Below are positions 3,555 to 23,444 of a DNA stretch of 24,821 bases, one piece after another. A program made the position numbers and the translations under genes. The DNA is taken from the IMG/VR virus record IMGVR_UViG_3300023290_000014; one strand, given 5' to 3'. Source of the DNA: a virus (Duplodnaviria; Heunggongvirae; Uroviricota; Caudoviricetes). Position 1 is the stretch's first letter. Every line of letters starts with the position of its first letter. Below the pieces are notes generated by a model. The model was not told the origin of the DNA, made no database searches, and saw nothing but the letters and a program-made list of their open reading frames with translations.

Positions 3555-4001
3555 TCACCCCGCCAGCCATTGCAGAATCATGTCGCGGGTCATTGCCTCA
3601 ACATCATCATTTACACCCAGAAGGCGACGCTCTGCGTAACGGACCTCAGGTCCTTTGCGACTGACGCGATCACGTAAGCCGTAGTGATGAACGCGGGCAA
3701 TACGCTGCACCTTACCTTCAAACTGTACGCTGGAAGAATCAGCGCTGGCGGCAGTTTTCAGGTATTTTGTGGTGCGCAGCTTTGCAAACATCTGACGTTT
3801 GATACGGCCTTTTTTACTGCGTGCTGTTAACCGTCGCGGTTCATAGCTGCTGCCGTCAGGATTGCGCTGCATCCTGATATTCTGCTGCTGTGTCCGGCGC
3901 AGTTCCTGCGCCAGCTGGCGCATCATACGGCTTCTTGCGGCTGGCTCCAGATTCGCCAGCAAGGCACTCAGCCAGTCGTCCACTTTCTGCAGTTCAGCCA
4001 C
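3555..4001 (-). CDS. S: Tail completion protein gpS
   Basis: 148-aa ORF downstream of R in the conserved R-S order, with size matching P2 gpS. Confidence 0.75.
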   Translation of the reverse strand: MAELQKVDDWLSALLANLEPAARSRMMRQLAQELRRTQQQNIRMQRNPDGSSYEPRRLTARSKKGRIKRQMFAKLRTTKYLKTAASADSSSVQFEGKVQRIARVHHYGLRDRVSRKGPEVRYAERRLLGVNDDVEAMTRDMILQWLAG

Positions 4002-4446
4002 GTTTCACCGTCCACATTTCTTCAGGTTCATCAGGTTCCGTTATCGCTTCAACGCTCGACACACTGCCGTCAGTGCTGACCAGCACACGCTCCGTCAGTT
4101 GCAGGTTAAGGCTGATATCACAGATATCGTTGCGCAAAATATCCACCTCAAAGGTGAATAACTTTTCCCGTAACGTCGGATTATTGATGGCATCGGGCTG
4201 GTTATTCCGCAGCCACAGCAAAACCGGGGCCATCAGCAGATTCTGGTCGCCGCTGAAATCTTCTATCACCACGTTCAGGGTGTAACGGTACTCCCATGAC
4301 ATGGAGCTGGCCCCCGTGGCAACCAGCGAACCGTTATCCACAAACAGATGCAGTTTGTCCGGGTTATTACGGACATAAGGCACCGCTTTATTGAGGGTGT
4401 GGCGCAGGGATTGTGGTTTGTTCACTGTTTCGCTCCTGACACGCAA
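3994..4446 (-). CDS. R: Tail completion protein gpR
   Basis: 150-aa ORF following the lysis genes, with a segment (LHLFVDNGSLVATGASSMSWEYRYTLNVVIEDFSGD) resembling P2 gpR as recalled. The annotated start overlaps the LysC 3' end, so the true start may be further downstream. Confidence 0.7.
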   Translation of the reverse strand: MRVRSETVNKPQSLRHTLNKAVPYVRNNPDKLHLFVDNGSLVATGASSMSWEYRYTLNVVIEDFSGDQNLLMAPVLLWLRNNQPDAINNPTLREKLFTFEVDILRNDICDISLNLQLTERVLVSTDGSVSSVEAITEPDEPEEMWTVKRG

Positions 4447-4678
4447 TAATCATGTCCACTTTGTCTGCACAGACCGCCCAGGCGGCTTCCGTTTCATCCA
4501 GCAACGCGTTCAGATCACCGTTAGTGCGCGGCGCTGCCTGCTCCAGCCGACACGGCGTCACTCGCGGACAACCACTGACGGTAAGCTGCACCTCCGGTGA
4601 GTACCGGACGTTCCCGCAGCCGGATAATGTCAGCAGGCAAAGGAGTATCAGCCCAGCGGCGTAAATCCTCGTTCTCAC
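4388..4678 (-). CDS. lysC: Outer-membrane spanin lipoprotein (LysC/Rz1-like o-spanin)
   Basis: 96-aa ORF in an alternative frame, starting inside lysB and extending past its stop. Signal peptide with lipobox LTLSGC and a proline-rich mature part, the hallmark of embedded o-spanins. Confidence 0.7.
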   Translation of the reverse strand: MRTRIYAAGLILLCLLTLSGCGNVRYSPEVQLTVSGCPRVTPCRLEQAAPRTNGDLNALLDETEAAWAVCADKVDMIIACQERNSEQTTIPAPHPQ

Positions 4679-4949
4679 GTTTCAGTTCCTCGATCCGGCG
4701 TTGTCGTTGTCTCAGCAGTGCGCTGGTCTGTTCGGCGTCGGCATAAAGCCGCGCCTGCTCCCGGTTGTTGGTTTCAGCCAGAATGGACAGGCTGATAAGC
4801 TGGCTGTTGCTCTTTGCCAGTTCCTGGCTTTTGCTCTGCAGCTCGTCTGCCTGCGTGCTGATGGTCTGGCTGGCATCAGCCAGCCGCCACGTCTGCCAGC
4901 CCAGCGCCGCCAGTAATAACGCCAGCACAACCAGCAGCAACCGGTTCAT
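4521..4949 (-). CDS. lysB: Inner-membrane spanin (LysB/Rz-like i-spanin)
   Basis: 142-aa ORF with N-terminal TM helix (LLLVVLALLLAALGW) followed by a charged coiled-coil region; it contains the embedded lysC frame. Confidence 0.75.
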   Translation of the reverse strand: MNRLLLVVLALLLAALGWQTWRLADASQTISTQADELQSKSQELAKSNSQLISLSILAETNNREQARLYADAEQTSALLRQRQRRIEELKRENEDLRRWADTPLPADIIRLRERPVLTGGAAYRQWLSASDAVSAGAGSAAH

Positions 4950-5323
4950 GCGGCTACCTGTTGCGCCATCTGGTTACGTGTGATCCAGAAGGCAATAACG
5001 GTCAGCAGATAAAAGACCAGGGTAATGGCCCACCCCGTCCAGGCGAGACTGACGACAATCAGCAATCGCATCACCCAGCTGATAAATACGTTTTCTTTTC
5101 GGGTAATGCTCTTCAGCAAAGATGCCCTCAACTCCTGCCAGAGAGGGCCGTTCTTAATTAACGCAGCCAGTGCTACCGGAATTACTGCCCATGTCAGCAG
5201 ACAGGCTACCCAGACACCAGATGCTGCCAGTACCGGAAAAATCCCCTGTGGATACATCATTGTTGCGATCAACAGCCCCATCCATAACATCAGAAACAGC
5301 CCGCTGATTAATTTCTTTTTCAT
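4946..5323 (-). CDS. lysA: LysA-like multi-TM lysis accessory membrane protein
   Basis: Likely start at internal MKKKLISGLF (ATG at 5323), 1 nt after the endolysin stop. Several hydrophobic helices. Position matches P2 lysA between K and lysB. Confidence 0.55.
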   Translation of the reverse strand: MKKKLISGLFLMLWMGLLIATMMYPQGIFPVLAASGVWVACLLTWAVIPVALAALIKNGPLWQELRASLLKSITRKENVFISWVMRLLIVVSLAWTGWAITLVFYLLTVIAFWITRNQMAQQVAA

Positions 5324-5324
5324 T

Positions 5325-5837
5325 TCAGTTTGCTCCCTGTAAGCACCAGGCCATCTCCCGCGCACGGCGGTTATCCAGCCCCTGATTAAAAACACCTTTC
5401 ACATAAACCCAGCGCGGCAACTGTCGGCACGCATCCGCCCAGCGCCGCTGGTTGAGTAATTTCACCAGCGTGGAACTGCAGGCATTGCCCGTTCCCACGT
5501 TGAAGGCAAACGACACCACCGCGTCATACACCTTCTGCGGCGGCTGTTGCTTCACACACCTTTCCAGCGCCCGCTCCACACGCAGCACGTTGGAGATCAG
5601 CCCTTCCGCTGCCTGTCGTTCCGTAATGGTTTTGCCGGGAATGACGCCCGATGTATTACCAATGCCGTCGGTCCAGACACCCGCGCTGCACTGATACGGC
5701 TGCAGACGACAGCCTTCGTAATCGGCAATCAGTTTCAGCCCCTCCACGGAGGTGTGAAGCTGCTGAAAACCCGGCAGCGTGGCAGCAATAGCCAGCACGG
5801 TCCCGACAAGGCAGCGTTTAACGATTGATGGATTCAT
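5325..5837 (-). CDS. Endolysin, GH24 lysozyme with N-terminal SAR-like hydrophobic segment
   Basis: 170 aa with hydrophobic N-terminus (LVGTVLAIAATL) and the T4-lysozyme-type catalytic region (ADYEGCRLQPY...GVWTDGIGNT). Confidence 0.8.
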   Translation of the reverse strand: MNPSIVKRCLVGTVLAIAATLPGFQQLHTSVEGLKLIADYEGCRLQPYQCSAGVWTDGIGNTSGVIPGKTITERQAAEGLISNVLRVERALERCVKQQPPQKVYDAVVSFAFNVGTGNACSSTLVKLLNQRRWADACRQLPRWVYVKGVFNQGLDNRRAREMAWCLQGAN

Positions 5838-6033
5838 AGTCCTCCCGCGAGATCTGCCCGTCGCGCAGAAGCTGGTAGGCTTTGTGTTTGTAGTACCAGT
5901 TGATAGCCAGCATCAGCACACCAATCATCAGGCCGCCCAGCGTTGAGGCATCCTTGATGGACAAATCGCCCAGCCAGGCCAGCACGACGGCGATGCAATA
6001 CGTGATAAAGGCGCTGATTCGCTCAAGCGTCAT
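5818..6033 (-). CDS. Holin (small 2-TM membrane protein)
   Basis: 71 aa with two hydrophobic helices and a charged C-terminus, sitting immediately upstream of and overlapping the endolysin gene. Confidence 0.6.
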   Translation of the reverse strand: MTLERISAFITYCIAVVLAWLGDLSIKDASTLGGLMIGVLMLAINWYYKHKAYQLLRDGQISREDYESINR

Positions 6034-11271: not shown

Positions 11272-12302
11272 TGGGAAAGAGTAAGAAGAACCGCGCTGCG
11301 GCGACGAAACAGATCCAGCTTAAAAGTCAAACTACAGCCGAAGCATTCAGCTTCGGCGATCCCGTTCCTGTTCTGGACCGCCGAGAACTGCTGGATTATG
11401 TGGAATGCGTACAGATGGACCGCTGGTATGAGCCGCCCGTCAGCTTTGACGGACTGGCGCGCACCTTCCGCGCTGCCGTGCATCATAGTTCCCCGATTGC
11501 AGTAAAGTGCAACATTCTGACCAGCACCTACATCCCTCACCCGCTGCTCAGCCAGCAGGCTTTTTCGCGTTTTGTGCAGGACTATCTGGTATTTGGTAAC
11601 GCCTACCTGGAGAAACGCACGAACCGCTTCGGTGAAGTTATCGCCCTTGAACCTGCCCTGGCAAAATACACCCGACGCGGGTTAGACCTGGATACCTACT
11701 GGTTTGTGCAATACGGTATGACAACCCAGCCGTATCAGTTCACGAAAGGCAGCATTTTTCATCTGATGGAGCCGGACATCAACCAGGAGATCTACGGCCT
11801 GCCCGGTTATCTTTCTGCCATTCCGTCCGCCCTGCTCAACGAGTCCGCCACGCTGTTCCGCCGCAAGTATTACATTAACGGCAGTCATGCAGGCTTCATC
11901 ATGTACATGACCGATGCCGCGCAGAACCAGGAGGATGTGAACAACCTCCGCAATGCGATGAAAAGCGCCAAAGGCCCTGGCAACTTCCGCAATCTGTTTA
12001 TGTACTCGCCTAACGGCAAAAAGGACGGACTTCAGATTATCCCGTTGTCAGAAGTCGCAGCGAAGGATGAGTTTCTGAATATCAAGAACGTGAGCCGTGA
12101 TGACATGATGGCTGCGCACCGCGTGCCGCCGCAAATGATGGGGATAATGCCTAATAATGTTGGGGGGTTTGGGGATGTGGAGAAGGCTAGTAAGGTATTC
12201 GTAAGAAACGAATTGATATCAATGCAAAAACGGATCAAGGAGATTAATGTCTGGTTAGGTACAGATATTATCGCATTTACAGAATATAACTTAGATATGT
12301 AA
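11268..12302 (+). CDS. Q: Portal (capsid vertex) protein gpQ
   Basis: 344-aa ORF, the exact length of P2 gpQ, translationally coupled to P. Confidence 0.9.
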   Translation: MMGKSKKNRAAATKQIQLKSQTTAEAFSFGDPVPVLDRRELLDYVECVQMDRWYEPPVSFDGLARTFRAAVHHSSPIAVKCNILTSTYIPHPLLSQQAFSRFVQDYLVFGNAYLEKRTNRFGEVIALEPALAKYTRRGLDLDTYWFVQYGMTTQPYQFTKGSIFHLMEPDINQEIYGLPGYLSAIPSALLNESATLFRRKYYINGSHAGFIMYMTDAAQNQEDVNNLRNAMKSAKGPGNFRNLFMYSPNGKKDGLQIIPLSEVAAKDEFLNIKNVSRDDMMAAHRVPPQMMGIMPNNVGGFGDVEKASKVFVRNELISMQKRIKEINVWLGTDIIAFTEYNLDM

Positions 12303-12317
12303 TCGTCCCACAATACA

Positions 12318-12341
12318 AGGCAAAGAGCATACTCTTTGCCT
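12318..12341. terminator. Hairpin between convergent Q and reverse transcriptase genes (possible bidirectional terminator)
   Basis: Stem ggcaaagag/ctctttgcc (9 bp) with a 4-nt loop (cata), sitting in the 49-bp gap between the two convergent stop codons. No clear T-run on either side. Confidence 0.35.
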
Positions 12342-12351
12342 GTAATTACAG

Positions 12352-14109
12352 TTATACTTTGCACCTCTTTGAATAATCTGCAATAATTTCCTCAATACCA
12401 TCAAAAATAACTTTAAACCTTTCAAAACTAATTGTTTTACAATTTGCCTTTATAACCTTTGTTGAAAACACATGCTTACCATATTCTGTTTTTGTATCCG
12501 TATCATTAGATTTATTAAATGTCTTTCCATCAAGCACCGTTGATAGTACCGTGCTATCAAATAAATCCTCCATACAAGACTCTTTCCCTCCAGGAAGCAA
12601 TGGTGTTAATAACAAATAGAGATTGTCAAATATGTGGGTATACCTTGCCTTACGAATAGTATCAACATCATTTGGACAATTTTTTACTTTATCCTTTAAG
12701 TGATTTAATAAATCTTTAGGGCCTGAGTCATTATCAAGAAGCATAATAACAGGGTGCTTTGGTTTAAATTTCTCGAACCTCTTTTTTTGTTCTTGGTATC
12801 TTAATATAAATCTTTTGAAGTCTGTAGCACCGCCAGAAATGTCAAGAAAATAGCTTGTTTTTTCAGTTGCTTTAAAAAAATTAACACGATACTCATTTTT
12901 AGAGCTATCATCAGAAGAATTAAACAATAAAGGATATGAATTCGCCAATGACTTCAAAGCACACTTTAAATATACACGGTCTGTTTTACCCTCAGTGAGT
13001 ATTGTTGGCATTTCCATTCCATGAAAATTTTTATAGTATAGAAAATAACTGTAGGCTTTTTCTCTCGAATTCAATTTTGCAGTGTAGTTTAATCCATGAT
13101 TTACACTTTGGTACTTTTCCAACTGTCTTGCGTTCTTTAGTTTTAAATTATTATATTTATCTATTGAGTCAATGAATCCAAAACGGCCTTCTAATTTAGC
13201 ACATGTACCTTTTTCAATCTTTCCTGATTCAGTAACAATAACAAAAGAACCATCTTTATAAAGAGAATGAGCCATGGCACGCGTTACTTTTGCATATTCT
13301 TTGCCAACATTCACTTTTTTATTAACAGTCAACCCAGTAACATCTTGTCGTGATGTTTTATAACAAACCCTTGTCTTTTTATCATTTATTTTAAAGCCAG
13401 CCTTTATAATCTCTTTAATTAAAGTTGGACTTAGGGTTACAGACTCTCCGCCAACATCAGCAATCTCTTTTGGAAATGTTTTTTTATTAGTTGAAAATGT
13501 AAGATCATCAGCATACCGTGAATAATTGCATCCGTATTTCTTTGCTAACTTTGATAATCTTATATCAAGAACTCCACTAATTAAGTTACTTATAATTGGA
13601 GAGCATGGGCTTCCTTGAGGAAGTCCATTCTGAAAACATGCAATTTGTGCGATCGTTGTAGCAACAGTATTATTTAATCTAAAATCTCTGTTTGATAAGA
13701 AAAAACCTCTAACACGTCCAAAATTAAAACTATCAAAATAATCCTCAAGGTCTATATTTAGTAGTAGCGTTTTACCTCTATGCCGTTCAGCATGCGTAAT
13801 AATTGACTTTTCTTTTTCAAACCCATGAGATAAAACTGGATTAATATTATATTTTTTATAAATTTCTGCACGACATAAATATAAAACATCAGCTAATCTA
13901 CGTTGAATATCTTTGAGCTTAGTGGTAGGTGCTGATATGACTCTCGGCGCTCCGTTTTTTTTAGGGATAGTAAATTGTGTATACTGCGTTTCAGCTTTTA
14001 AACGATAAATAACATCCGTAAGAAAAGCAGTTTTAAGATTCAAGATACTAGCCAAATCTTGCCTGTTAGCAGCGTTTTGTAAACGTTCTAAAATTGATAG
14101 GGGTGCCAT
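12352..14109 (-). CDS. Retron-type reverse transcriptase fused to a C-terminal TOPRIM-like domain
   Basis: 585-aa ORF with the RT active-site motif YADD (NYSRYADDLTFS) and the retron-typical VTG motif (QDVTGLTVN). C-terminal extension carries TOPRIM-like acidic motifs (ILTEGKTDRVYL and VIMLLDNDSGPKD). Visibly AT-rich compared with flanking phage genes. Confidence 0.8.
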   Translation of the reverse strand: MAPLSILERLQNAANRQDLASILNLKTAFLTDVIYRLKAETQYTQFTIPKKNGAPRVISAPTTKLKDIQRRLADVLYLCRAEIYKKYNINPVLSHGFEKEKSIITHAERHRGKTLLLNIDLEDYFDSFNFGRVRGFFLSNRDFRLNNTVATTIAQIACFQNGLPQGSPCSPIISNLISGVLDIRLSKLAKKYGCNYSRYADDLTFSTNKKTFPKEIADVGGESVTLSPTLIKEIIKAGFKINDKKTRVCYKTSRQDVTGLTVNKKVNVGKEYAKVTRAMAHSLYKDGSFVIVTESGKIEKGTCAKLEGRFGFIDSIDKYNNLKLKNARQLEKYQSVNHGLNYTAKLNSREKAYSYFLYYKNFHGMEMPTILTEGKTDRVYLKCALKSLANSYPLLFNSSDDSSKNEYRVNFFKATEKTSYFLDISGGATDFKRFILRYQEQKKRFEKFKPKHPVIMLLDNDSGPKDLLNHLKDKVKNCPNDVDTIRKARYTHIFDNLYLLLTPLLPGGKESCMEDLFDSTVLSTVLDGKTFNKSNDTDTKTEYGKHVFSTKVIKANCKTISFERFKVIFDGIEEIIADYSKRCKV

Positions 14110-14144
14110 ATCTAAAAATCAACCTTGATTATCAGTTAGGGTAG

Positions 14145-14275
14145 GCACATGTAGGCACTCTTACGCAAAGCATAGGACAGCCCAAGAATGGCTACAAGGA
14201 TGTCAGAAGGCGAATCCATCTAACATTTAGATCACTGATTGCGATACCACAACCAACAAATCTGCCTACATGTGC
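14145..14275 (-). ncRNA. Candidate retron msr-msd non-coding RNA bounded by a1/a2 inverted repeats
   Basis: Perfect 13-bp inverted repeat (plus strand gcacatgtaggca at 14145-14157 and tgcctacatgtgc at 14263-14275) separated by 105 nt, immediately upstream of the RT start on the same strand. This is the canonical retron arrangement. Exact RNA ends are not determinable from sequence. Confidence 0.5.
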
Positions 14276-14356
14276 ATGCTTAAGCTACCATGATCATTTA
14301 AGAATGTGAAGAACCGTTAACAGTTTTGAAAGAGCCAGATCATAGCATTGCGCGCG

Positions 14357-14375
14357 CTCGTATCCCCGCCACGCC
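14357..14375 (-). other. Candidate cos site (cohesive-end region)
   Basis: Minus strand reads GGCGTGGCGGGGATACGAGCGCGCGC. The first 13 nt match the start of the P2/186 19-nt cohesive end as I recall it (GGCGAGGCGGGGAAAGCAC / GGCGTGGCGGGGAAAGCAT). Orientation relative to Q is as in P2. From memory only. Confidence 0.35.
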
Positions 14376-14420
14376 TGCCCGCTTTGTGTAGTGGTTTTCA
14401 TGCACCTGCATGACATAAGC

Positions 14421-14444
14421 AAAAGCCCGCCAGCTCTGGCGGGC
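14421..14444 (-). terminator. Rho-independent terminator downstream of the HNH-motif gene
   Basis: On the minus strand, GC-rich stem GCCCGCCAG/CTGGCGGGC followed directly by TTTTGCTT. Confidence 0.5.
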
Positions 14445-14557
14445 ATCAGCAAAAACGATCCTCAAACGATCATGCGATTTCATGCGGCATAGACATGCGT
14501 TGGCAAAAATGTACGAAATACTCAGCTTATAGGAAATGGTCTTTTTCCAACCTCCAG

Positions 14558-15277
14558 TTAGCCAAAGCAGAAACCAATATTGCAATTTGAAACTCCACAG
14601 TTGTGAAATTGATGTGGACCTACTCTTAGCTTGTGTTCGTCTCCTACAATCCGAGTCCCCTTAACCAACATATCTAATCTTTCCACAATCAATCTTTCAG
14701 GCGCATCAACTTTAATAATTAAACGAGGACCTTTCCTTTTTTCTATAATAGTTATTCTAGGACCGACAACCTGAACATCCCAATGCCTTGCACTACAAAC
14801 CCACTCATTCTTAATTAATTCAAGATTAACAATACCTTGACTATCGTAAAATTTACCCGAAATAAGAAAAGCATTATTTTCTTTTTCAATGGTTAACAAT
14901 GGCTCATTTTGAAACATTATTGGTACAGTACAGGATTCAAACGTCGCACCACCAAATATTATTGTTGGATGCCTATCAGAAAAGTCCAATATATCGGCCA
15001 CATTCCCTTTTTGTAAGGCTGCAGGAGATTCCATTGCTTTAATTATTTTCTCTTTAGAGTAAAGACGTTTCGTTACTTTCGCATGGCACGTAGGACAAAG
15101 TAGTGCTATTGCATTTGGAGAGTGCTCCTTTGCATCAGCGTATGTGGGAATTACATGCTCATACTCAACAATGGGAGAAGCACAAACAACGCAACCGAAG
15201 CCACAGCGCTGCCTTACCTCCAGTTTTACAGGTTCAGGAATTGTTCTAGATAACCCATGCTTGTTAATAGTTGTCAT
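14558..15277 (-). CDS. Uncharacterised HNH-motif nuclease-like protein (cargo gene)
   Basis: 239-aa ORF with AAGG/AGGT ribosome-binding site 5-8 nt upstream of ATG. N-terminal HNH-like zinc-binding signature (CGFGCVVCASPIVEYEHVIP...NAIALLCPTCHAKV) and a Cys/His-rich C-terminus (HQFHNCGVSNCNIGFC). AT-rich. Confidence 0.6.
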   Translation of the reverse strand: MTTINKHGLSRTIPEPVKLEVRQRCGFGCVVCASPIVEYEHVIPTYADAKEHSPNAIALLCPTCHAKVTKRLYSKEKIIKAMESPAALQKGNVADILDFSDRHPTIIFGGATFESCTVPIMFQNEPLLTIEKENNAFLISGKFYDSQGIVNLELIKNEWVCSARHWDVQVVGPRITIIEKRKGPRLIIKVDAPERLIVERLDMLVKGTRIVGDEHKLRVGPHQFHNCGVSNCNIGFCFG

Positions 15278-15399
15278 AACCTTACCTTAAAACTTCGAGA
15301 AACCTTTTATATATTGATACTATATCAACTAACGCCTCGCACAGCTCGTTGTTCAACCTTGCTGACGCCAGAAGCAAGTTCAGACGCCAGCAACGTTTC

Positions 15400-15633
15400 T
15401 TAATGCAGCCAGCTGTCGTCTTCCCACACCTTCTGCATAATTTTCATCACTTGCTTCCTTTCTTCGTCCAGTTGCAGTCCGGTCAGTTCCACACCGTTAG
15501 AGCTACCTTTGCGGATGCGAATTACCGTTTTTGGATATAGGGGGCGCAGATTGCGGTAAAGCTCGGATTCAAGGGCGTCCAGGGTAGACTGGCTAATCTT
15601 CTGCTCTTTATCGATCATTATTTCAATGCGCAT
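15400..15633 (-). CDS. DinI-like protein (resembles C-terminal module of 186 Tum antirepressor)
   Basis: Start at internal ATG 15633 with GAGGTG ribosome-binding site. The 77-aa product (MRIEIMIDKEQKISQSTLDALESELYRNLRPLYPK...KVWEDDSWLH) has the DinI-family pattern. Confidence 0.65.
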   Translation of the reverse strand: MRIEIMIDKEQKISQSTLDALESELYRNLRPLYPKTVIRIRKGSSNGVELTGLQLDEERKQVMKIMQKVWEDDSWLH

Positions 15634-15643
15634 AAAAGTCACC

Positions 15644-15832
15644 TCAGCTGATGACATCCATTGAGCGGTTGTATTCGTGGGTTCTGATTTTTGCCATGAG
15701 TTCATCTGTCAGTTCAGAAACCCACTGCAAAGCCAGCCCCTTCTCTTCATCACTACACTCACTAGCCGCTACAAGCTTAAGAAAAAAATCAATGCGCTGG
15801 AGCTTCAAAGACTCCAAAAAATAGTCCTGCAT
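15644..15832 (-). CDS. Small protein upstream of DinI-like gene (possible Tum N-terminal module)
   Basis: ATG at 15832 is preceded by GGAGGAAAG. The 62-aa ORF ends 10 nt before the DinI-like start, in a different frame. The longer 96-aa version in the ORF track would run through the LexA box and is less likely. Confidence 0.4.
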   Translation of the reverse strand: MQDYFLESLKLQRIDFFLKLVAASECSDEEKGLALQWVSELTDELMAKIRTHEYNRSMDVIS

Positions 15833-15874
15833 CTTTCCTCCTATGACACCACAAGCAATACTGTATGTATAACC

Positions 15875-15893
15875 ACTGTTTATATTTACAGTA
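15875..15893. promoter_or_regulatory. LexA box (SOS operator) upstream of the tum/DinI-like module
   Basis: aCTGTttatatttACAGta is a perfect CTGT-N8-ACAG with an AT-rich spacer, about 45 bp upstream of the 15832 start codon. Confidence 0.65.
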
Positions 15894-15985
15894 TATAATA
15901 ATCTTACTGATGTAAAACGTTTTTTTACGTTCATCAGCCTGATATGCCTGGTATTATTAAGAGCACGAATTGTTAACCCGCGTAA

Positions 15986-18400
15986 TTAATACAGGTTTCG
16001 CCACTTATCATCTTCCTGCAAACGCTGGTTCCGATAGAAGATACGCAGGCCTGCTCCTGACGGAATACTGCCGCAGCGAAGGAGTAAATCGACCTCTTTC
16101 TCGCTGCCATCAAATCCTCTGGACTTCAGTTCATAGACGAGCTGCTGTCGCTGATGGTCTGTAATTCGCTGTTTGTAGTCTTTACGCCGTTTCGGTTTCA
16201 CCAGGCGTAACCTTGCAGCCAGTTCCCGGCGCTCTTTTTTGCTCATACTGTGCAGGTAATCGTGCAACTCCTTGTCATCCATGCGGGTAATGTCCGTCCT
16301 GGTATCCCCATCAGCTGATTTGTCTTTCCCTTGTTGGTTCAAATTTTCAGCAAGGGGACAGTTATTGCCACGAGTCCAAGGGGCGCAAGCGCCCTGGTCG
16401 GCTGCCGCCTCCTGAACGTCAACGGCCTTACGAACCATTTTCCACTTCACTGCATGAGTGCAGATCTTGCCCTCTGCAATGGGTGACCAGATGCCATAAA
16501 TACGAATACCGTGATCGCCATAGGCGGTTGGCTCTTCGTTGATTTCATAAGCGGTTCTGATGAGGTGATATTTGCGGGGAACCAGTACGCCGCCCTGCTT
16601 CATGATGTAGGTGGCAAAACAACCAGCATCAGCAGCAGCCAGAATGGCATCAAGACGCGGGTTATCCAGTACCGGCGCACCTGCTTTTTTGTCACCCTGT
16701 TGCCTTGCCGCCTGACCAGCCAGCAAGCGAAGTTCACGGTAAGCCTGACGTCCCGGAATACCAAAGAAGCGGAATTGCTGAACACGATGCAGAGACGCCC
16801 AGGCATTAACGTATTCAGCGTTATCACGCAGGGATTTACCCGTTTCCTTGCTGATCTCGCCAGCCAGACCACGCCCGTCAATGTTCTTACTGATGTATTT
16901 CGCGATGTAGCTTGTCGGCGTTCCTTTGCGCGGGTTTATCAGCTCAGATTTAAAGCGTGGACCAGTGTTATTACCCAGTTCCTCGCGGTCTTCACGGATG
17001 GCAAACTTACGCAACAATGCAGTAATGGCGCGGCGGTCTTTTTTGCGCATGAAACACAACAGGTGCCAGTGAACTGTACCGTCATGATGCGGCTCAGCCA
17101 CCCGCACGCCATACCAGCGCAACCCGGCTTTGTGCATCGCCTTACGAAATGCAGCAAACATGCCGACCAGATAATCACTGCTTTGTCTTACCGTCGCATT
17201 TGTCCAGGTTGGGTTTGGTCTGCCGTTATTGAGCGTGGAATGGAAACGTGACGGACAGGTAATGGTGTAGAAAACGGCGCAGTCACCGCGCATTTCCGCG
17301 ATAAGCTCCAGACCTTTAACACAGGCCATCATCTCATTGCGGCGGTGCGCCGGGTTGCTGCTGCTGGCGTTTACCACGTCTTCCATATCCAGCGTGTCGC
17401 CCTCTTCGTTCACCAGTTCATGAGAACGGAAAAACTCCAGTGACTTGCGGCGCTGCTCACGTTTATGCATCACGGCTTCATAGCTGACATAGGGAGATGC
17501 TTTTTTGCTGACCAGGCAGACAGCACGCAACTGCTCTTCCCGCCATTCGCAACGCATTTTCCATAATTTCCGGTACCACCAGTCGGCGCACAACATACGC
17601 GCCAGCGAACCCGGAATGAGTTCATAGGGCACGGGTTTACGGCGGTTTCTTTTCCGACGGAGTTGCTCAAACGCAGGCGGGATGACATCCAGACGCAGGG
17701 TTTCCGCTGCCACCTTTTCCCATGTCTTGCGGATTTCTTCTGGCTTAACGTCATCGGTGGCATACAAATCACCACAAGCTGCATCAAGGCACATGCTCAT
17801 ATGCGCAGCGACAAGGGTAGACAGGCGTTTCACCTGATCCTGACTCATTTCAGGCAGAATCAGCAGGCCGTCCAGCCCTACATGGCTTGCCATAAAACGA
17901 AAAGATGCAGATAGCTGGCTGTCGCGTACATGCTCCAGTCGTTCCAGACATGGCTTAATCGTCTCACGTAAATAGCGGGAATAAGCCTTTGGCCTGCCCA
18001 GGCTGCTGAAGTATTCAATACGTTGCATCAGCGGCTTGCTGATATGGGAGGGCTGGGCGCTGACATCTGCCAGAATGACCATGTCCGGGTTAAAACGCTG
18101 CTGCTCATGCGCCAACTTTGCCCGGCTAATGAGCTTATCCTGCTCTATTTCGCGTTGGACAGGATCACGGGATTCATTAAAGAAATAACGCTCCCAGACC
18201 TGATCACTCAGTGCCTCGCGGCGCAGTTGTTCCTGCTCGTTATCGGCAGCGTACAGAGTGATCAGGTTTGAAAGCGCAGAAACCGGCGCAACTTCCGCCG
18301 GGTCCAGATAAGGGTTAATGGCCTTTTTCGGGCTGTTCCATGAGAACGATGCGGCAGCCTCGTTAAAGCCGCAGCAGTTGCTCATATCGGCATGGCTCAT
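15986..18400 (-). CDS. A: Replication initiation protein gpA (rolling-circle HUH endonuclease)
   Basis: 804-aa ORF with HUH motif (VHWHLLCFM) and a catalytic tyrosine pair (SYIAKYISK). Start overlaps the Dam stop (ATGA). Confidence 0.85.
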
Positions 18401-19254
18401 GCACGTACTCCGTACACGGCAGAACTATCCACGCCACGCGAATAATCAAATCCCACCCAGCAGCGCGGCCCGGAAACAGCAATGATTTCTGTTGCTGATT
18501 TACTCTCACCAGCTGCTACGCCGATGCTGCGTTTTACCTTGATATAGTGGTGAGTAAAATTGCGATACAGCGAACGGATCAGGGATGTGTCACTGTTAGA
18601 AACAATGACCGGATGTCCTTCTGATGACCGATGTTCAAGAACGGATGCCAGGTGATACTGGTCATCTTCAGTAAAGCCGTCAGCGTGATAGCCGGAAAAC
18701 GTACCGTCATAAGGCGGATCGCAATACACCACATCCCCCGCCTTCAACATCGCCAGCGTTTCATCAAAGCTGGCGCAGATAAACGTTGCTCGCTGGGCTT
18801 TTTCTGCAAAAGCGCGAATTTCTTTTTCAGGGAAATACGGATTTTTATAATTACCGTAGGGAATGTTGAAATGCCCGCTCTTGTTATAGCGACATAACCC
18901 ACGGTAACCGTGACGATTGAGATACAGGAAATATACCGCTTTCATGAAATCAGTAATTTCAGTTGAGTAATTAAACTCCTGCCTTATGTTGTAATAAGCC
19001 ACCTCCCTGTTTGCGATCTCAAATAAAACTTTGGCGCGAGATATAAACGATTCACAATCAGCGGCAACCTTTTTATAGAGGTTGATTAAATCAGGATTAA
19101 TATCCGCAACCAGATAGCAGGGATAATCCGTCTCCATCATCACAGCACAGGAACCCGCGAAAGGTTCAACTAGTCGCGGACCAGCAGGAAGATGTTTTTT
19201 CAGTTCGGACATTACGGCGGTTTTATTTCCCGCCCATTTCAAGATGGTGCTCAT
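18397..19254 (-). CDS. dam: DNA adenine methyltransferase (Dam-like)
   Basis: Likely start at [11 protein letters not shown] (ATG 19254, ATGA overlap with the upstream gene). SAM-binding motif EPFAGSCAV and catalytic DPPY ([10 protein letters not shown]). The longer 305-aa ORF would run into the upstream gene. Confidence 0.8.
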
Positions 19255-19478
19255 ACAGCACCTCCGTTGTAATGTTTGCCTTTCAGCTCTGCGATTTCCT
19301 GACATGTAATGCAAAGCTGCACACCCGGAATGGCACGGCGGCGTGCTGGCGGAATTGGCGCTTCACACTCAACGCAAAGCACGCGGGACACGCCCGGCGT
19401 TTTGGCACGGGCAGCACGGATATGGCGCTGGCGTTCTTCTTCAACGCGCTGCTGTACGAGATCCATTGCATCAGCCAT
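19251..19478 (-). CDS. TraR/DksA-family C4 zinc-finger protein
   Basis: 75 aa with CVECEAPIP...CITCQE (two CxxC pairs), the size and pattern of phage TraR-like proteins. TAATG overlap with the upstream ORF. Confidence 0.65.
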   Translation of the reverse strand: MADAMDLVQQRVEEERQRHIRAARAKTPGVSRVLCVECEAPIPPARRRAIPGVQLCITCQEIAELKGKHYNGGAV

Positions 19479-21767: not shown

Positions 21768-23444
21768 ATGAATTCATTTTCCATCGTTATATTCTTATTA
21801 GCATTTCTCGCCCCCATTCTAGCTGTAATATTATTTAAGCAAAGCAAAAAACATAAAGCGGCTATAAATACCTTGACAGCTAACAACATAGCCCTTTCCA
21901 ACCAACTGAAAGAAAATCAAGAAGAATTAGCACAGACTGTACGAGATCTATCAGAGCTTGAAGGACGAGCTGCGCCATTATGGCAATACGTAGAATTGCA
22001 CAGCGCAGTGATGGAAGCAGAGAATAAGATAAAAAATGCAGACTCAATAGCCAGGCAAAAAATAGAAGAAGCCCAAATAAAGGCTGCTAAGACAGTAAAC
22101 GAAGCAAATTATCAAGCTCAGATAAAAATAAGCAACGCTAATAGCGAAGCTATAGCAATTACTAAAGACGCTCGCGATGCACGCCTGAAAGCTAAAGAAC
22201 GTCTTGATAATGCCAATAGTAAAGCAAATGAGCTGATCTCAAATGCTAATGACAATGCAGTGAAAATTATTTCCGATGCAGAAGAAAGAGCAAAAGAGAT
22301 TGCTGGTTCAGCATATGAAGCTAAAGAGTTTGCAGAAAAATATGAAGCAGTTGCCAAATCAATGAAAAATAAAATTGAAGGTTATGGTGATGAATGGATC
22401 ATCCCTAACCGTAGCGTTCTCGATGAATTGGCAGAAAATTATGAGTTTACAGATGCAGGTAAGGAATTACAAAAAGCCAGGGAGTTAACAAAATCATTAA
22501 TAAAAACTAATAAAGCTGCTTCGTGTGATTATGTTGAACAAAACAGGCGTAATACTGCTATCAACTTTGTTTTAGATGCCTTCAATGGAAGAGTTGACAG
22601 TATTTTATCAAAAGTCAAACACAACAATTTTGGAAAACTTTCCCAAGAGATAAAAGATGCGTTTCAACTTGTAAATTACAATGGTTCTGCCTTTAGGTCC
22701 GCAAAAATAAGTGACATCTATCTTCAAGCTCGACTCAACGAGCTAAAATGGGGAGTTGCAGTTAATGAAATTATGCTCGAAGAAAAAGAAGAGCAAAGAA
22801 GGATTAAAGAACAACTTCGTGAAGAGGAAAGAGCTCGTAGGGAGTATGAAAAAGCGATAAAAGAAGCTGAAAAAGAAGAGAAAGCTATTCAGCAAGCTAT
22901 AAATAAAGCAACAAAAGAGCTTATGCTTGCAAATGAAGAACAACGCTTAGCTTTAGAGCAAAAAATAGCTGAACTACAGTTAAAATATGAAGAAGCTGAA
23001 GCTAAAAACCAACGAGCTATTTCTATGGCTCAACAAACTAGATCAGGCCACGTTTATATAATTAGTAATATTGGCTCATTTGGCGAAGATGTATATAAAA
23101 TTGGAATGACACGCCGCCTTGAACCACTTGATCGTGTTCGTGAACTCGGTGATGCTAGTGTTCCTTTTTCGTTCGATGTTCATGCGATGATTTATAGTGA
23201 TGATGCACCATCATTAGAAAATCATCTGCATAAAGTCTTCAACGAAAAACAGGTCAATAAAATTAACTCACGAAAAGAGTTTTTCAACGTAAATATTAAA
23301 GAAATTAAGTCTGTTATTGAAGATATGAACATCAACGCACAATGGACAATGTTTGCGGAAGCGAAAGAATATAGAGAGTCACTGGCGATTGAGCAAGAGC
23401 GCAAAGCAGCAACTTCCGCCAACGATGAACTGCATGTTGCTTAG
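21768..23444 (+). CDS. Membrane-anchored coiled-coil protein with C-terminal T5orf172/GIY-YIG-like domain (cargo; candidate defence or abortive-infection gene)
   Basis: 558 aa: N-terminal TM helix (FSIVIFLLAFLAPILAVILF), a long charged coiled coil, and a C-terminus with the T5orf172 pattern (VYIISN...YKIGMTRRLEPLDRVRELGDASVPFSFDVHAMI...KEFFNV). Strongly AT-rich, starting 21 bp after the cI stop. Confidence 0.6.
   Translation: MNSFSIVIFLLAFLAPILAVILFKQSKKHKAAINTLTANNIALSNQLKENQEELAQTVRDLSELEGRAAPLWQYVELHSAVMEAENKIKNADSIARQKIEEAQIKAAKTVNEANYQAQIKISNANSEAIAITKDARDARLKAKERLDNANSKANELISNANDNAVKIISDAEERAKEIAGSAYEAKEFAEKYEAVAKSMKNKIEGYGDEWIIPNRSVLDELAENYEFTDAGKELQKARELTKSLIKTNKAASCDYVEQNRRNTAINFVLDAFNGRVDSILSKVKHNNFGKLSQEIKDAFQLVNYNGSAFRSAKISDIYLQARLNELKWGVAVNEIMLEEKEEQRRIKEQLREEERARREYEKAIKEAEKEEKAIQQAINKATKELMLANEEQRLALEQKIAELQLKYEEAEAKNQRAISMAQQTRSGHVYIISNIGSFGEDVYKIGMTRRLEPLDRVRELGDASVPFSFDVHAMIYSDDAPSLENHLHKVFNEKQVNKINSRKEFFNVNIKEIKSVIEDMNINAQWTMFAEAKEYRESLAIEQERKAATSANDELHVA

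What the first reader, a model, noticed from the sequence alone, without database searches (positions are those of the whole stretch)
12352..14290. Retron (RT-TOPRIM fusion plus candidate msr-msd) inserted between cos and the portal gene
The 585-aa protein has the reverse-transcriptase YADD box and the retron-specific VTG motif, plus a C-terminal extension with TOPRIM-like acidic motifs (EGKTD, DNDSG). Immediately upstream on the same strand is a perfect 13-bp inverted repeat spaced 105 nt apart, the signature a1/a2 repeats that bracket retron msr-msd. From memory, the a1-proximal sequence (CACATGTAGGCAGATTTGTTGGTTGTG...) closely resembles the start of the retron Ec67 (Eco2) ncRNA, which also has an RT of about 586 aa in a 186-like prophage carrying a Dam gene, while the msd portion looks different. 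This would be an Ec67-type anti-phage retron, possibly with a divergent msd.
Basis: partly seen in the sequence, partly recalled or inferred. Interest (0 to 1): 0.7.

Follow-up and report, generated by a model that had tools for sequence, protein, structure and literature searches.

The report
Ec67-family retron in a 186-like prophage
This is an intact copy of a known anti-phage device, an Ec67/Eco2-type retron (one reverse transcriptase–nuclease fusion protein plus its small template RNA), sitting at its usual place next to the packaging site of a 186-like prophage; the call is correct but the element is ordinary and already named in public databases.

Summary
The 585-aa ORF at 14109..12352 (-) is a full-length homologue of the solved retron Ec67/Eco2 RT-TOPRIM protein (E 2e-216, 57% identity). 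It scores 716 bits on NCBIfam retron_Ec67_fus (cutoff 450) and 734 bits on PADLOC RT-Toprim_I-C. All RT and TOPRIM catalytic residues are kept, and the modelled C-terminal domain has an OLD-type TOPRIM fold. The perfect 13-bp inverted repeat (14275-14263 / 14157-14145) brackets a 131-nt msr-msd RNA. Its msr half is 84% identical to the canonical Ec67 RNA and its msd half 67%. A covariance model built from four E. coli lineages finds the same RNA directly upstream of the RT in 81 of 84 sources, with strong compensatory covariation. The cassette lies 100 nt from cos, between cos and the portal gene, as canonical Ec67 does. The likely mechanism, inferred by homology, is that msDNA cages the TOPRIM RNase until a phage nuclease destroys the msDNA, after which tRNA is cut and translation stops. 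The exact protein is already deposited as "retron Ec67 family" (90% cluster of 886 members, E. coli and Salmonella). Only this lineage's predicted 66-nt msDNA is undescribed. Interest is low.

The parts
14282..14310 (-). Candidate sigma-70 promoter for the msr-msd-RT transcript. TTCACA (14310-14305), a 17-nt spacer ending in TGg, and TAGCTT (14287-14282) form an extended -10 type promoter. The predicted start is at about 14277-14274, at the 5' edge of the inverted repeat.
   Evidence: Read from the sequence. The TG-n-TA--TT positions are invariant in all four E. coli retron lineages aligned. The consensus scanner did not report it, because its -10 matches only 3 of 6. This part is inferred, not shown.
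14145..14277 (-). Retron non-coding RNA (msr-msd), about 131-133 nt.
   Evidence: It matches model R1 full length at 134 bits. It aligns to the canonical Ec67 RNA. The RNA fold is -54 kcal/mol with z = -6.2.
14263..14275 (-). 5' inverted repeat (IRa2), GCACAUGUAGGCA, which pairs with 14157-14145.
   Evidence: 13/13 complementary. Compensatory changes occur at 4 of the 13 pairs among the four E. coli lineages. In the 81-sequence alignment, helix 1 (16 pairs: the repeat plus three adjacent UUU pairs) has changes on both sides at 13 pairs.
14262..14262 (-). Predicted branching guanosine, the homologue of Ec67 rG15, which primes msDNA through a 2'-5' bond.
   Evidence: Positional homology to Ec67 rG15. 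The motif GCAGATTT is conserved in at least 90% of 81 family RNAs. The chemistry was not tested.
14234..14257 (-). msr stem-loop GUUGGUUGUG-GUAU-CGCAAUCAGU, the homologue of Ec67 rG20-rU42 with a 4-nt loop in place of 3.
   Evidence: All 8 modelled pairs of this helix show changes on both sides across the family.
14159..14224 (-). Predicted msd template (66 nt). The predicted msDNA is 5'-TCTTACGCAAAGCATAGGACAGCCCAAGAATGGCTACAAGGATGTCAGAAGGCGAATCCATCTAAC-3'.
   Evidence: The ends are placed by homology to the Ec67 template, rG52 to rA118, whose ends are experimentally defined. Identity to the Ec67 msd is 67%. The ends were not measured here.
14145..14157 (-). 3' inverted repeat (IRa1), UGCCUACAUGUGC.
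13009..14109 (-). Reverse-transcriptase domain (residues 1-367) of the fusion protein. F46, R184, YADD 199-202 (13515-13504), VTG 257-259 and H281 are kept.
   Evidence: Pfam RVT_1 at 2.6e-27. Identity to the Ec67 RT domain is 58% and the key residues map one to one. The residues' roles come from the Eco2 structures.
12352..13008 (-). TOPRIM nuclease domain (residues 368-585, plus the stop codon). It contains E373-G-K-T-D377 (12993-12979), D459-N-D461 (12735-12727), E514 and K545.
12318..12341 (-). Hairpin AGGCAAAGAG-UAUG-CUCUUUGCCU followed by a U-rich tail. It is a terminator-like site between the RT stop (12352) and the convergent portal stop (12302).
   Evidence: It occupies the place of the tW/tQ terminators annotated in phages 186 and P2. 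Function is inferred.
14357..14375 (-). Prophage cos cohesive-end sequence GGCGTGGCGGGGATACGAG. This is context and marks the left boundary of the retron cassette. Homology to other P2-like phages stops at about 14348.
   Evidence: It aligns to the annotated cos of 186 and P2. The 14348-14498 stretch is 90-97% identical to the listed P2-like phage records. The same cos sequence lies 89-100 nt upstream of the RNA in the Ec67, GF4-3 and Enterobacter loci.

Best explanation
This is an intact type I-C1 (Ec67/Eco2 family) retron carried as a cargo ('moron') gene cassette by a 186-like prophage. What the sequence shows: one transcription unit on the minus strand holds a 131-nt msr-msd RNA, followed 35 nt later by a single 585-aa RT-TOPRIM fusion gene and a terminator hairpin. 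What is inferred by homology to Eco2: the RT binds the folded RNA. It primes from the 2'-OH of the G at 14262 and copies the template 14159-14224 into a roughly 66-nt msDNA that stays joined to the msr RNA. RT-TOPRIM and msDNA assemble into an oligomer (a trimer in Eco2) in which the msDNA covers the TOPRIM active sites. On infection a phage DNA endonuclease (DenB of T-even phages, A1 of T5-like phages) degrades the msDNA. The exposed TOPRIM RNase then cuts tRNA and other RNA, translation stops, and the phage fails to complete its cycle. The benefit goes to the lysogen and its prophage.
For: Protein: the match to solved Ec67 is full length, E 2e-216, at 57% identity. NCBIfam retron_Ec67_fus scores 716 bits against a 450-bit cutoff, and PADLOC RT-Toprim_I-C scores 734 bits and is described as 'single gene'. 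The full AF2 model is closest to the Eco2 cryo-EM chains (E 1e-67). The domain model has a TOPRIM/OLD-type fold. All residues shown by mutation to be needed in Eco2 are present: F46, the YADD aspartates, E373, D377, D459, D461 and E514. RNA: the 13-bp repeat is perfect. The msr half is 84% identical to the Ec67 RNA, which was located verbatim in L004. The RNA model hits directly upstream of the RT in 81 of 84 sources. In those, 92.9% of cells form standard pairs, against 77% in shuffles and 33-51% when partners are slid, and 26 of 32 pairs show changes on both sides. Context: the position relative to cos and portal is the same as for canonical Ec67. The gpA-gpQ region next to cos is a documented defence hotspot of P2-like phages that contains retrons (PMC9122126). 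The mechanism itself comes from PMC12916289 and PMC12405507.
Against: Nothing about function was measured here: not msDNA synthesis, not oligomer state, not trigger, not RNA target. Several points weaken a simple transfer of the Eco2 mechanism. Identity to Eco2 is only 57%. The trimer-contact loop (Ec67 residues 325-347) is largely different, and R332, whose alanine mutant abolishes Eco2 defence, is K here. The residue described as a metal-B ligand, S513, is C512 here and A in the GF4-3 lineage. The middle of the msd differs. Folded alone as DNA, the predicted msDNA is no more stable than shuffles (z 0.17). The same is true of the Ec67 msDNA (z 0.05), so this does not separate the two. The promoter is inferred only. 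About half of the natural copies of this lineage that were sampled carry a frameshifted TOPRIM domain, which suggests the gene is sometimes selected against.
Confidence: 0.87

Rival explanations
1. It is a retron of the Ec67 family by descent, but this copy is inactive or decaying, a remnant carried passively by the prophage.
For: A 500-aa allele of this lineage lacks E514 and K545 because of a 1-nt deletion in an A-run at codon 475. It was seen on 462 contigs, against 510 and 44 contigs for the two full-length sequences with the most. Among the 14 complete E. coli genomes with the locus, 6 show a split annotation. Eco2 expression slows growth even without infection, so loss can be favoured.
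Against: In this window the ORF is uninterrupted at 585 aa, and every catalytic residue of both domains is kept. The inverted repeat is perfect, the branching-G context is intact, and the -10 element is conserved. The exact protein recurs in many genomes.
Confidence: 0.08
2. It is a working Ec67-family retron, but it has a different trigger or assembly from Eco2, because the msd, the trimer loop and one metal-site residue differ. It would therefore defend against a different set of phages.
For: The msd is 67% identical against 84% for msr. The predicted msDNA is 66 nt, not 67. The middle segment, which in Eco2 forms the three-way junction and carries the DenB cut sites at positions 15, 17, 31 and 37, is the most diverged part. 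The trimer loop is diverged and carries R332K, and S513 is C. Three or four diverged lineages coexist at one site in related prophages, which fits diversifying selection.
Against: DenB cuts upstream of dC with little other sequence specificity, and the predicted msDNA still has many dC in its middle. Caging by msDNA need not depend on exact sequence. The conserved msd ends, with the CGC/GCG pairs invariant or nearly so across the family, suggest a shared architecture. No experiment bears on the question.
Confidence: 0.04
3. The RT belongs to another class (group II intron maturase, Abi or DRT/UG reverse transcriptase), and the inverted repeat is coincidental.
For: Weak similarity to those classes exists, as it does for any RT: group II at 56 bits and Drt2 at 41 bits.
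Against: Those scores are far below the models' cutoffs of 300 and 390 bits, while the Ec67 model is far above its own. There are no intron RNA domains and no Rfam hit. The upstream RNA is a conserved, covarying family specific to RT-TOPRIM genes.
Confidence: 0.01

Closest known systems
Retron Ec67 / Retron-Eco2 (type I-C1), E. coli; PDB 9LM3, 9I2F, 9I2G, 9S1F
   Same: The architecture is the same: a single RT-TOPRIM fusion (585 vs 586 aa) preceded by the msr-msd RNA on the same strand. All catalytic residues match. The branching-G context GGCAGAUUU is the same. The msr hairpin has 9 identical pairs and one G-C to G-U change. The msd ends are conserved. The genomic site is the same, just after cos and before the portal gene of a 186-like prophage that also carries dam.
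   Different: Protein identity is 57% (RT 58%, TOPRIM 53%). The msr loop is 4 nt, not 3. The msd is 67% identical and predicted to be 66 nt, not 67. The trimer-contact loop is diverged, with R332K and D331E. S513 is C512. The distance from cos to the RNA is 100 nt, not 89. This lineage has no experimental data.
Other E. coli Ec67-family lineages: the GF4-3 type (L001) and the SE15/ST131 type (L003)
   Same: The family HMM name, architecture and ncRNA family are the same. The GF4-3 type sits at the same site between cos and portal.
   Different: Identity to the window is 55% for GF4-3 and 52% for SE15. The SE15/ST131 type is not in a P2-like prophage. It lies near dhaR, next to ABC-three-component-system genes, and is far more common: 513 of the 541 complete E. 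coli genomes matching the RNA do so at 60-80% identity, and every listed example is of this type.
OLD-family TOPRIM nucleases (class 2 OLD 6NK8, Gabija GajA, PARIS AriB, retron Eco8 OLD)
   Different: There is no ATPase domain, and the TOPRIM is fused to an RT instead. Sequence identity is 13-16%, and no Pfam TOPRIM model detects it. Mestre et al. place the I-C TOPRIM as a separate lineage.
Retron Ec86 / Eco1 (type II-A) and other retrons with a separate effector
   Same: It shares the retron RT core (E 2e-32), the a1/a2 repeats, 2'-5' branch priming and an msDNA that acts as the sensor.
   Different: Those retrons use a separate effector protein, their msr has extra hairpins, and they form no RT-TOPRIM trimer.

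Membership tests
Retron type I-C1 (Ec67/Eco2 family) | A retron-clade reverse transcriptase with the YADD catalytic box and the retron-specific VTG and (N/R)AxxH motifs | tested here: met
   YADD is at 199-202, VTG at 257-259 and RAMAH at 277-281 with H281 aligned to Ec67 H281. Retron RTs are the top PDB hits and non-retron RTs score at E 1e-6 or worse.
Retron type I-C1 (Ec67/Eco2 family) | A TOPRIM domain fused to the RT C-terminus, with motif IV EGxxD and motif V DxD (Mestre et al. 2020; the DxE form defines I-C2) | tested here: met
   [not shown]
Retron type I-C1 (Ec67/Eco2 family) | A full-length match to the curated family model above its cutoff | tested here: met
   NF038237 retron_Ec67_fus scores 716.4 bits against a 450-bit cutoff, covering profile positions 1-572 of 572. 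PADLOC RT-Toprim_I-C scores 734 bits.
Retron type I-C1 (Ec67/Eco2 family) | A cognate ncRNA immediately upstream on the same strand, with terminal inverted repeats, a branching G directly after the 5' repeat, and a single msr hairpin | tested here: met
   The family covariance model scores 134 bits here and hits in 81 of 84 sources, with covariation support.
Retron type I-C1 (Ec67/Eco2 family) | A single-gene system with no separate effector gene | tested here: met
   The RT is followed by a terminator and the convergent portal gene. The gene on the far side of cos varies among carriers: HNH here, SIR2 plus an ATP-binding protein in L002, and a small hypothetical protein in L087. It is therefore not part of the system.
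Retron type I-C1 (Ec67/Eco2 family) | Production of branched msDNA (an RNA-DNA hybrid joined by a 2'-5' bond) | not testable with these tools
   Only predicted, by positional homology to Ec67 rG15 and rG52-rA118.
Retron type I-C1 (Ec67/Eco2 family) | An msDNA-dependent trimer that cages the TOPRIM domains, activated by phage nucleases, with tRNA/RNA cleavage as the output | not testable with these tools
   This is known for Eco2 only. Here the trimer loop is diverged and R332 is K.
Rfam RNA families (any, including retron msr) | A match to a curated covariance model | tested here: not met
   No relevant hit at E <= 1 in 11800-16200. No Rfam family matched this RNA, and this does not count against the retron reading.
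Group II intron RT / DRT / Abi reverse transcriptases | A score above the family cutoff | tested here: not met
   group_II_RT_mat scores 56.5 bits against a 300-bit cutoff and Drt2 scores 41.1 bits against 390.

The most novel reading that the evidence does not exclude
This lineage's nearest neighbour outside its own 90% cluster is only 64% identical. It may be a functionally distinct Eco2-type retron. Its different msd middle segment, diverged trimer-contact loop (R332K) and Cys at the position of Eco2's Ser513 could change which phage nucleases trigger it or how it assembles. Together with the other lineages that occupy the same cos-proximal site, it would then be a natural panel for finding out what in the msDNA sets trigger specificity.
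Probability: 0.2. Interest if true: 0.35.

Novelty: new member of a known kind. Interest (0 to 1): 0.15.

Why it matters
It matters little beyond correct annotation. The locus adds one more diverged, intact member to a retron family whose structure, trigger and effector chemistry were solved in 2025-2026. Two points have modest practical value. First, public records annotate the protein but not the msr-msd RNA, and its coordinates, branching G and predicted 66-nt msDNA are given here. Second, several RT-TOPRIM lineages at 55-70% identity sit at exactly the same site, 89-100 nt from cos, in related prophages. They offer a ready comparison set for asking how msDNA sequence affects trigger specificity, and possible alternative scaffolds for retron-based DNA production.

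Tried and rejected
1. An Rfam scan of 11800-16200 at E <= 1 found no retron or other relevant RNA family. The only hit was a chance lncRNA match at E 0.38.
2. Pfam on the C-terminal 226 aa at E <= 10 found nothing. A PDB sequence search with that domain found only Ec67. The TOPRIM assignment therefore had to come from a fold comparison.
3. I tested a small hairpin near the 3' end of the msd template (GGAGG/CCUCC in Ec67) as a possible conserved element. It pairs in 58% of cells, the same as shuffled and slid controls, so it was rejected.
4. I folded the predicted msDNA as free DNA. It is no more stable than shuffles for either this retron or Ec67, so a stable hairpin cannot serve as evidence either way. 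This fits the report that Eco2 msDNA does not form the classical hairpin in the complex.
5. The phage collection (INPHARED) holds no match to the RT at blastn sensitivity. Only the cos-flanking 150 nt matched.
6. I looked for prior experimental use of this lineage. The supplements of the retron census contain canonical Eco2 but not this RNA or protein. A full-text search for its msd, msDNA, protein N-terminus and WP_023145585 returned no papers. The supplements of Mestre et al. are not held.
7. The consensus promoter scan did not report a promoter upstream of msr. The proposed extended -10 promoter rests on manual reading and four-lineage conservation only.

Full report
**1. The observation**

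The minus strand carries an uninterrupted 585-aa ORF at 14109..12352. YADD is at residues 199-202, VTG at 257-259, EGKTD at 373-377 and DNDSG at 459-463.

A perfect 13-nt inverted repeat lies at 14145-14157 / 14263-14275, with 105 nt between the arms. About 0.0016 such pairs are expected by chance in the 461 nt searched.

**2. The protein**

The whole ORF aligns end to end with the solved retron Ec67 (Eco2) protein: PDB 9LM3/9I2F, E 2e-216, residues 4-579 against 4-580. Other retron RTs follow at 1e-32 to 1e-16. Group II intron RTs and DRT2 appear only at 1e-6 or worse.

- NCBIfam retron_Ec67_fus scores 716 bits against a curated cutoff of 450. The group II and Drt2 models fall far below their own cutoffs.
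- PADLOC gives RT-Toprim_I-C at 734 bits and describes it as a single-gene system.
- Identity to canonical Ec67 is 57% overall, 58% in the RT domain and 53% in the TOPRIM domain.

I mapped the residues that the two Eco2 structure papers tie to function. F46, R184, Y199/A200/D201/D202, H281, E373, D377, D459, D461, E514 and K545 are all kept, and most are invariant in 26 diverse family members. The differences are T249C, R264K, D331E, R332K and S513→C512. The trimer-contact loop (Ec67 residues 325-347) is largely different.

**3. The RNA**

Aligned to it, the window RNA has the following parts:

- the 5' repeat at 14275-14263;
- the branching G at 14262, within the conserved GGCAGAUUU;
- the msr hairpin at 14257-14234, with the same ten pairs except one G-C to G-U change and a 4-nt loop;
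- a single-stranded GAUCUAAAU;
- a 66-nt template at 14224-14159;
- the 3' repeat at 14157-14145.

The msr half is 84% identical to Ec67 and the msd 67%. Both msd ends are conserved and the middle differs. The RNA folds at -54 kcal/mol, z = -6.2 against shuffles.

Four E. coli lineages (this one, Ec67, GF4-3 and SE15) already show compensatory changes at four pairs of the terminal stem. I built a covariance model from those four. It found a full-length match directly upstream of the RT gene in 81 of 84 sources, including 77 of 80 loci from genomes across many phyla.

On that alignment 92.9% of cells form standard pairs, against 77% in shuffles and 33-51% when partners are slid. Changes on both sides occur at 26 of 32 pairs, including 13 of 16 in the terminal stem and 8 of 8 in the msr hairpin. 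The alignment is fitted to the model, which favours pairing. Even so, the size of the effect and the slid controls leave little doubt. Family-wide conserved strings (GCAGATTT, and GCGtAaGAGTgcC at the 3' end of the msd) are all present in the window.

**4. Context**

The window is a 186-like prophage. It encodes integrase, CI, CII, Fil, a Dam methylase (18397-19314, PF02086), replication protein A, DinI, then the retron, portal, terminase and the head, lysis and tail genes.

The minus-strand sequence GGCGTGGCGGGGATACGAG at 14375-14357 aligns with the annotated 19-nt cohesive ends of 186 and P2. In those phages only about 170 nt, including a terminator, separate cos from the portal stop. Here the gap is 2,054 nt, and homology to other P2-like phages ends at about 14348. 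The cassette therefore lies between cos and portal, as the title says.

Canonical Ec67, the GF4-3 lineage and an Enterobacter homologue lie at the same place, with cos 89-100 nt upstream of the RNA. The gpA-gpQ region next to cos is a documented hotspot of defence genes in P2-like phages, retrons included (PMC9122126).

The gene on the other side of cos varies among carriers of this same retron. It is an HNH protein here, SIR2 plus an ATP-binding protein in L002, and a small hypothetical protein in L087. It is not part of the system.

A hairpin terminator follows the RT at 12341-12318. A likely extended -10 promoter (TTCACA-N17-TGgTAGCTT, 14310-14282) precedes the RNA. Its -10 positions are invariant in the four lineages. 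The scanner did not call it, so it remains an inference.

**5. Mechanism**

The sequence shows one transcription unit with the RNA and the RT-TOPRIM gene, both intact. The rest is inferred from Eco2 (PMC12405507 and PMC12916289).

- The RT primes on the 2'-OH of the branching G and copies the msd into msDNA.
- RT-TOPRIM and msDNA form a trimer in which the msDNA cages the TOPRIM sites.
- Phage DNA endonucleases (DenB, and probably A1) cut the msDNA.
- The freed TOPRIM domain cleaves tRNA and other RNA, and translation stops.

Conservation of all catalytic residues and of the RNA architecture makes the same scheme the best explanation here (about 0.87). The diverged trimer loop, R332K, C512 and the different msd middle leave room for a different trigger range or assembly.

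**6. Comparison and novelty**

All sequence-testable defining features of type I-C1 (Mestre et al. 2020) are met. msDNA production, oligomer state and defence could not be tested.

The exact protein is already in public databases as [quoted passage not shown]. Its 90% cluster has 886 members from E. coli and Salmonella. Fourteen of 5,426 complete E. coli genomes carry the locus at about 99% identity.

The next nearest protein among 5.8 billion is 64% identical. The lineage is therefore distinct, and I found no paper that holds its sequences. The ncRNA is unannotated in the records.

Noticed in passing
window 21768-23444 (+): A 558-aa DUF4041/T5orf172 protein lies between the CI repressor and the integrase. 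It matches PADLOC PD-Lambda-1 at 400 bits, and PGAP calls its homologue 'SNIPE associated domain-containing protein'. This is a second anti-phage gene in the same prophage.
   Followed up: partly
window 14558-15277 (-): A 239-aa protein with an N-terminal HNH motif (Pfam 2.4e-5) lies in the gpA-cos side of the hotspot. It matches phrog_6544 (unknown function, 372 bits) and has no PADLOC or NCBIfam hit. None of the 14 complete E. coli genomes carrying this retron has it next to the retron, while other genomes have it without the retron. The two sides of cos therefore assort independently. It is a candidate uncharacterised defence or exclusion gene.
   Followed up: partly
L087 12353-14109 (E. 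coli 13E0780), equivalent to window codon 475 (about 12685): A 1-nt deletion in an A-run frameshifts the TOPRIM domain after the DxD motif, giving a 500-aa product that lacks E514 and K545. That truncated allele was seen on 462 contigs, similar in number to the full-length alleles. This suggests recurrent or clonally spread inactivation of the nuclease.
   Followed up: partly
L004 3909/3998, L001 5124/5213, L002 6132/6232, L009 2247/2337: RT-TOPRIM lineages that are only 55-70% identical to one another occupy exactly the same site, with the RNA starting 89-100 nt after an identical cos sequence. This looks like cassette exchange at a fixed junction rather than independent insertions.
   Followed up: partly
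L003 (E. coli SE15) 4001-5918, and 513 genomes: The commonest Ec67-family retron in complete E. coli genomes (the ST131/SE15 type, about 50% identical to Ec67) is not in a P2-like prophage. It lies near dhaR, next to genes annotated 'ABC-three component system'.
   Followed up: no
[not shown]
   Followed up: no
Ec67 residue numbering: PMC12405507 names 'K562' as the catalytic lysine of Eco2 TOPRIM. In my alignment Ec67 position 562 is Asp. The family-invariant lysine is Ec67 K546, which is K545 here. The paper may have carried over the numbering of the Burkholderia OLD protein it compared with.
   Followed up: no
window 14159-14224 (predicted msDNA) and Ec67 msDNA: Folded alone as DNA, neither msDNA is more stable than shuffled sequence (z 0.17 and 0.05). 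This agrees with the cryo-EM report that Eco2 msDNA does not adopt the textbook hairpin.
   Followed up: partly
window 14425-14444 (-): A strong terminator-like hairpin, GCCCGCCAGAGCTGGCGGGC followed by TTTT, lies between the HNH gene and cos, inside the stretch conserved in P2-like phages. It is probably the terminator of the early or hotspot operon.
   Followed up: no
window 18397-19314 (-): A Dam-type N6-adenine methyltransferase (PF02086, 252 bits; PADLOC orphan MTase) lies immediately upstream of the replication gene A, as in the Ec67-carrying prophages L001 and L004.
   Followed up: partly
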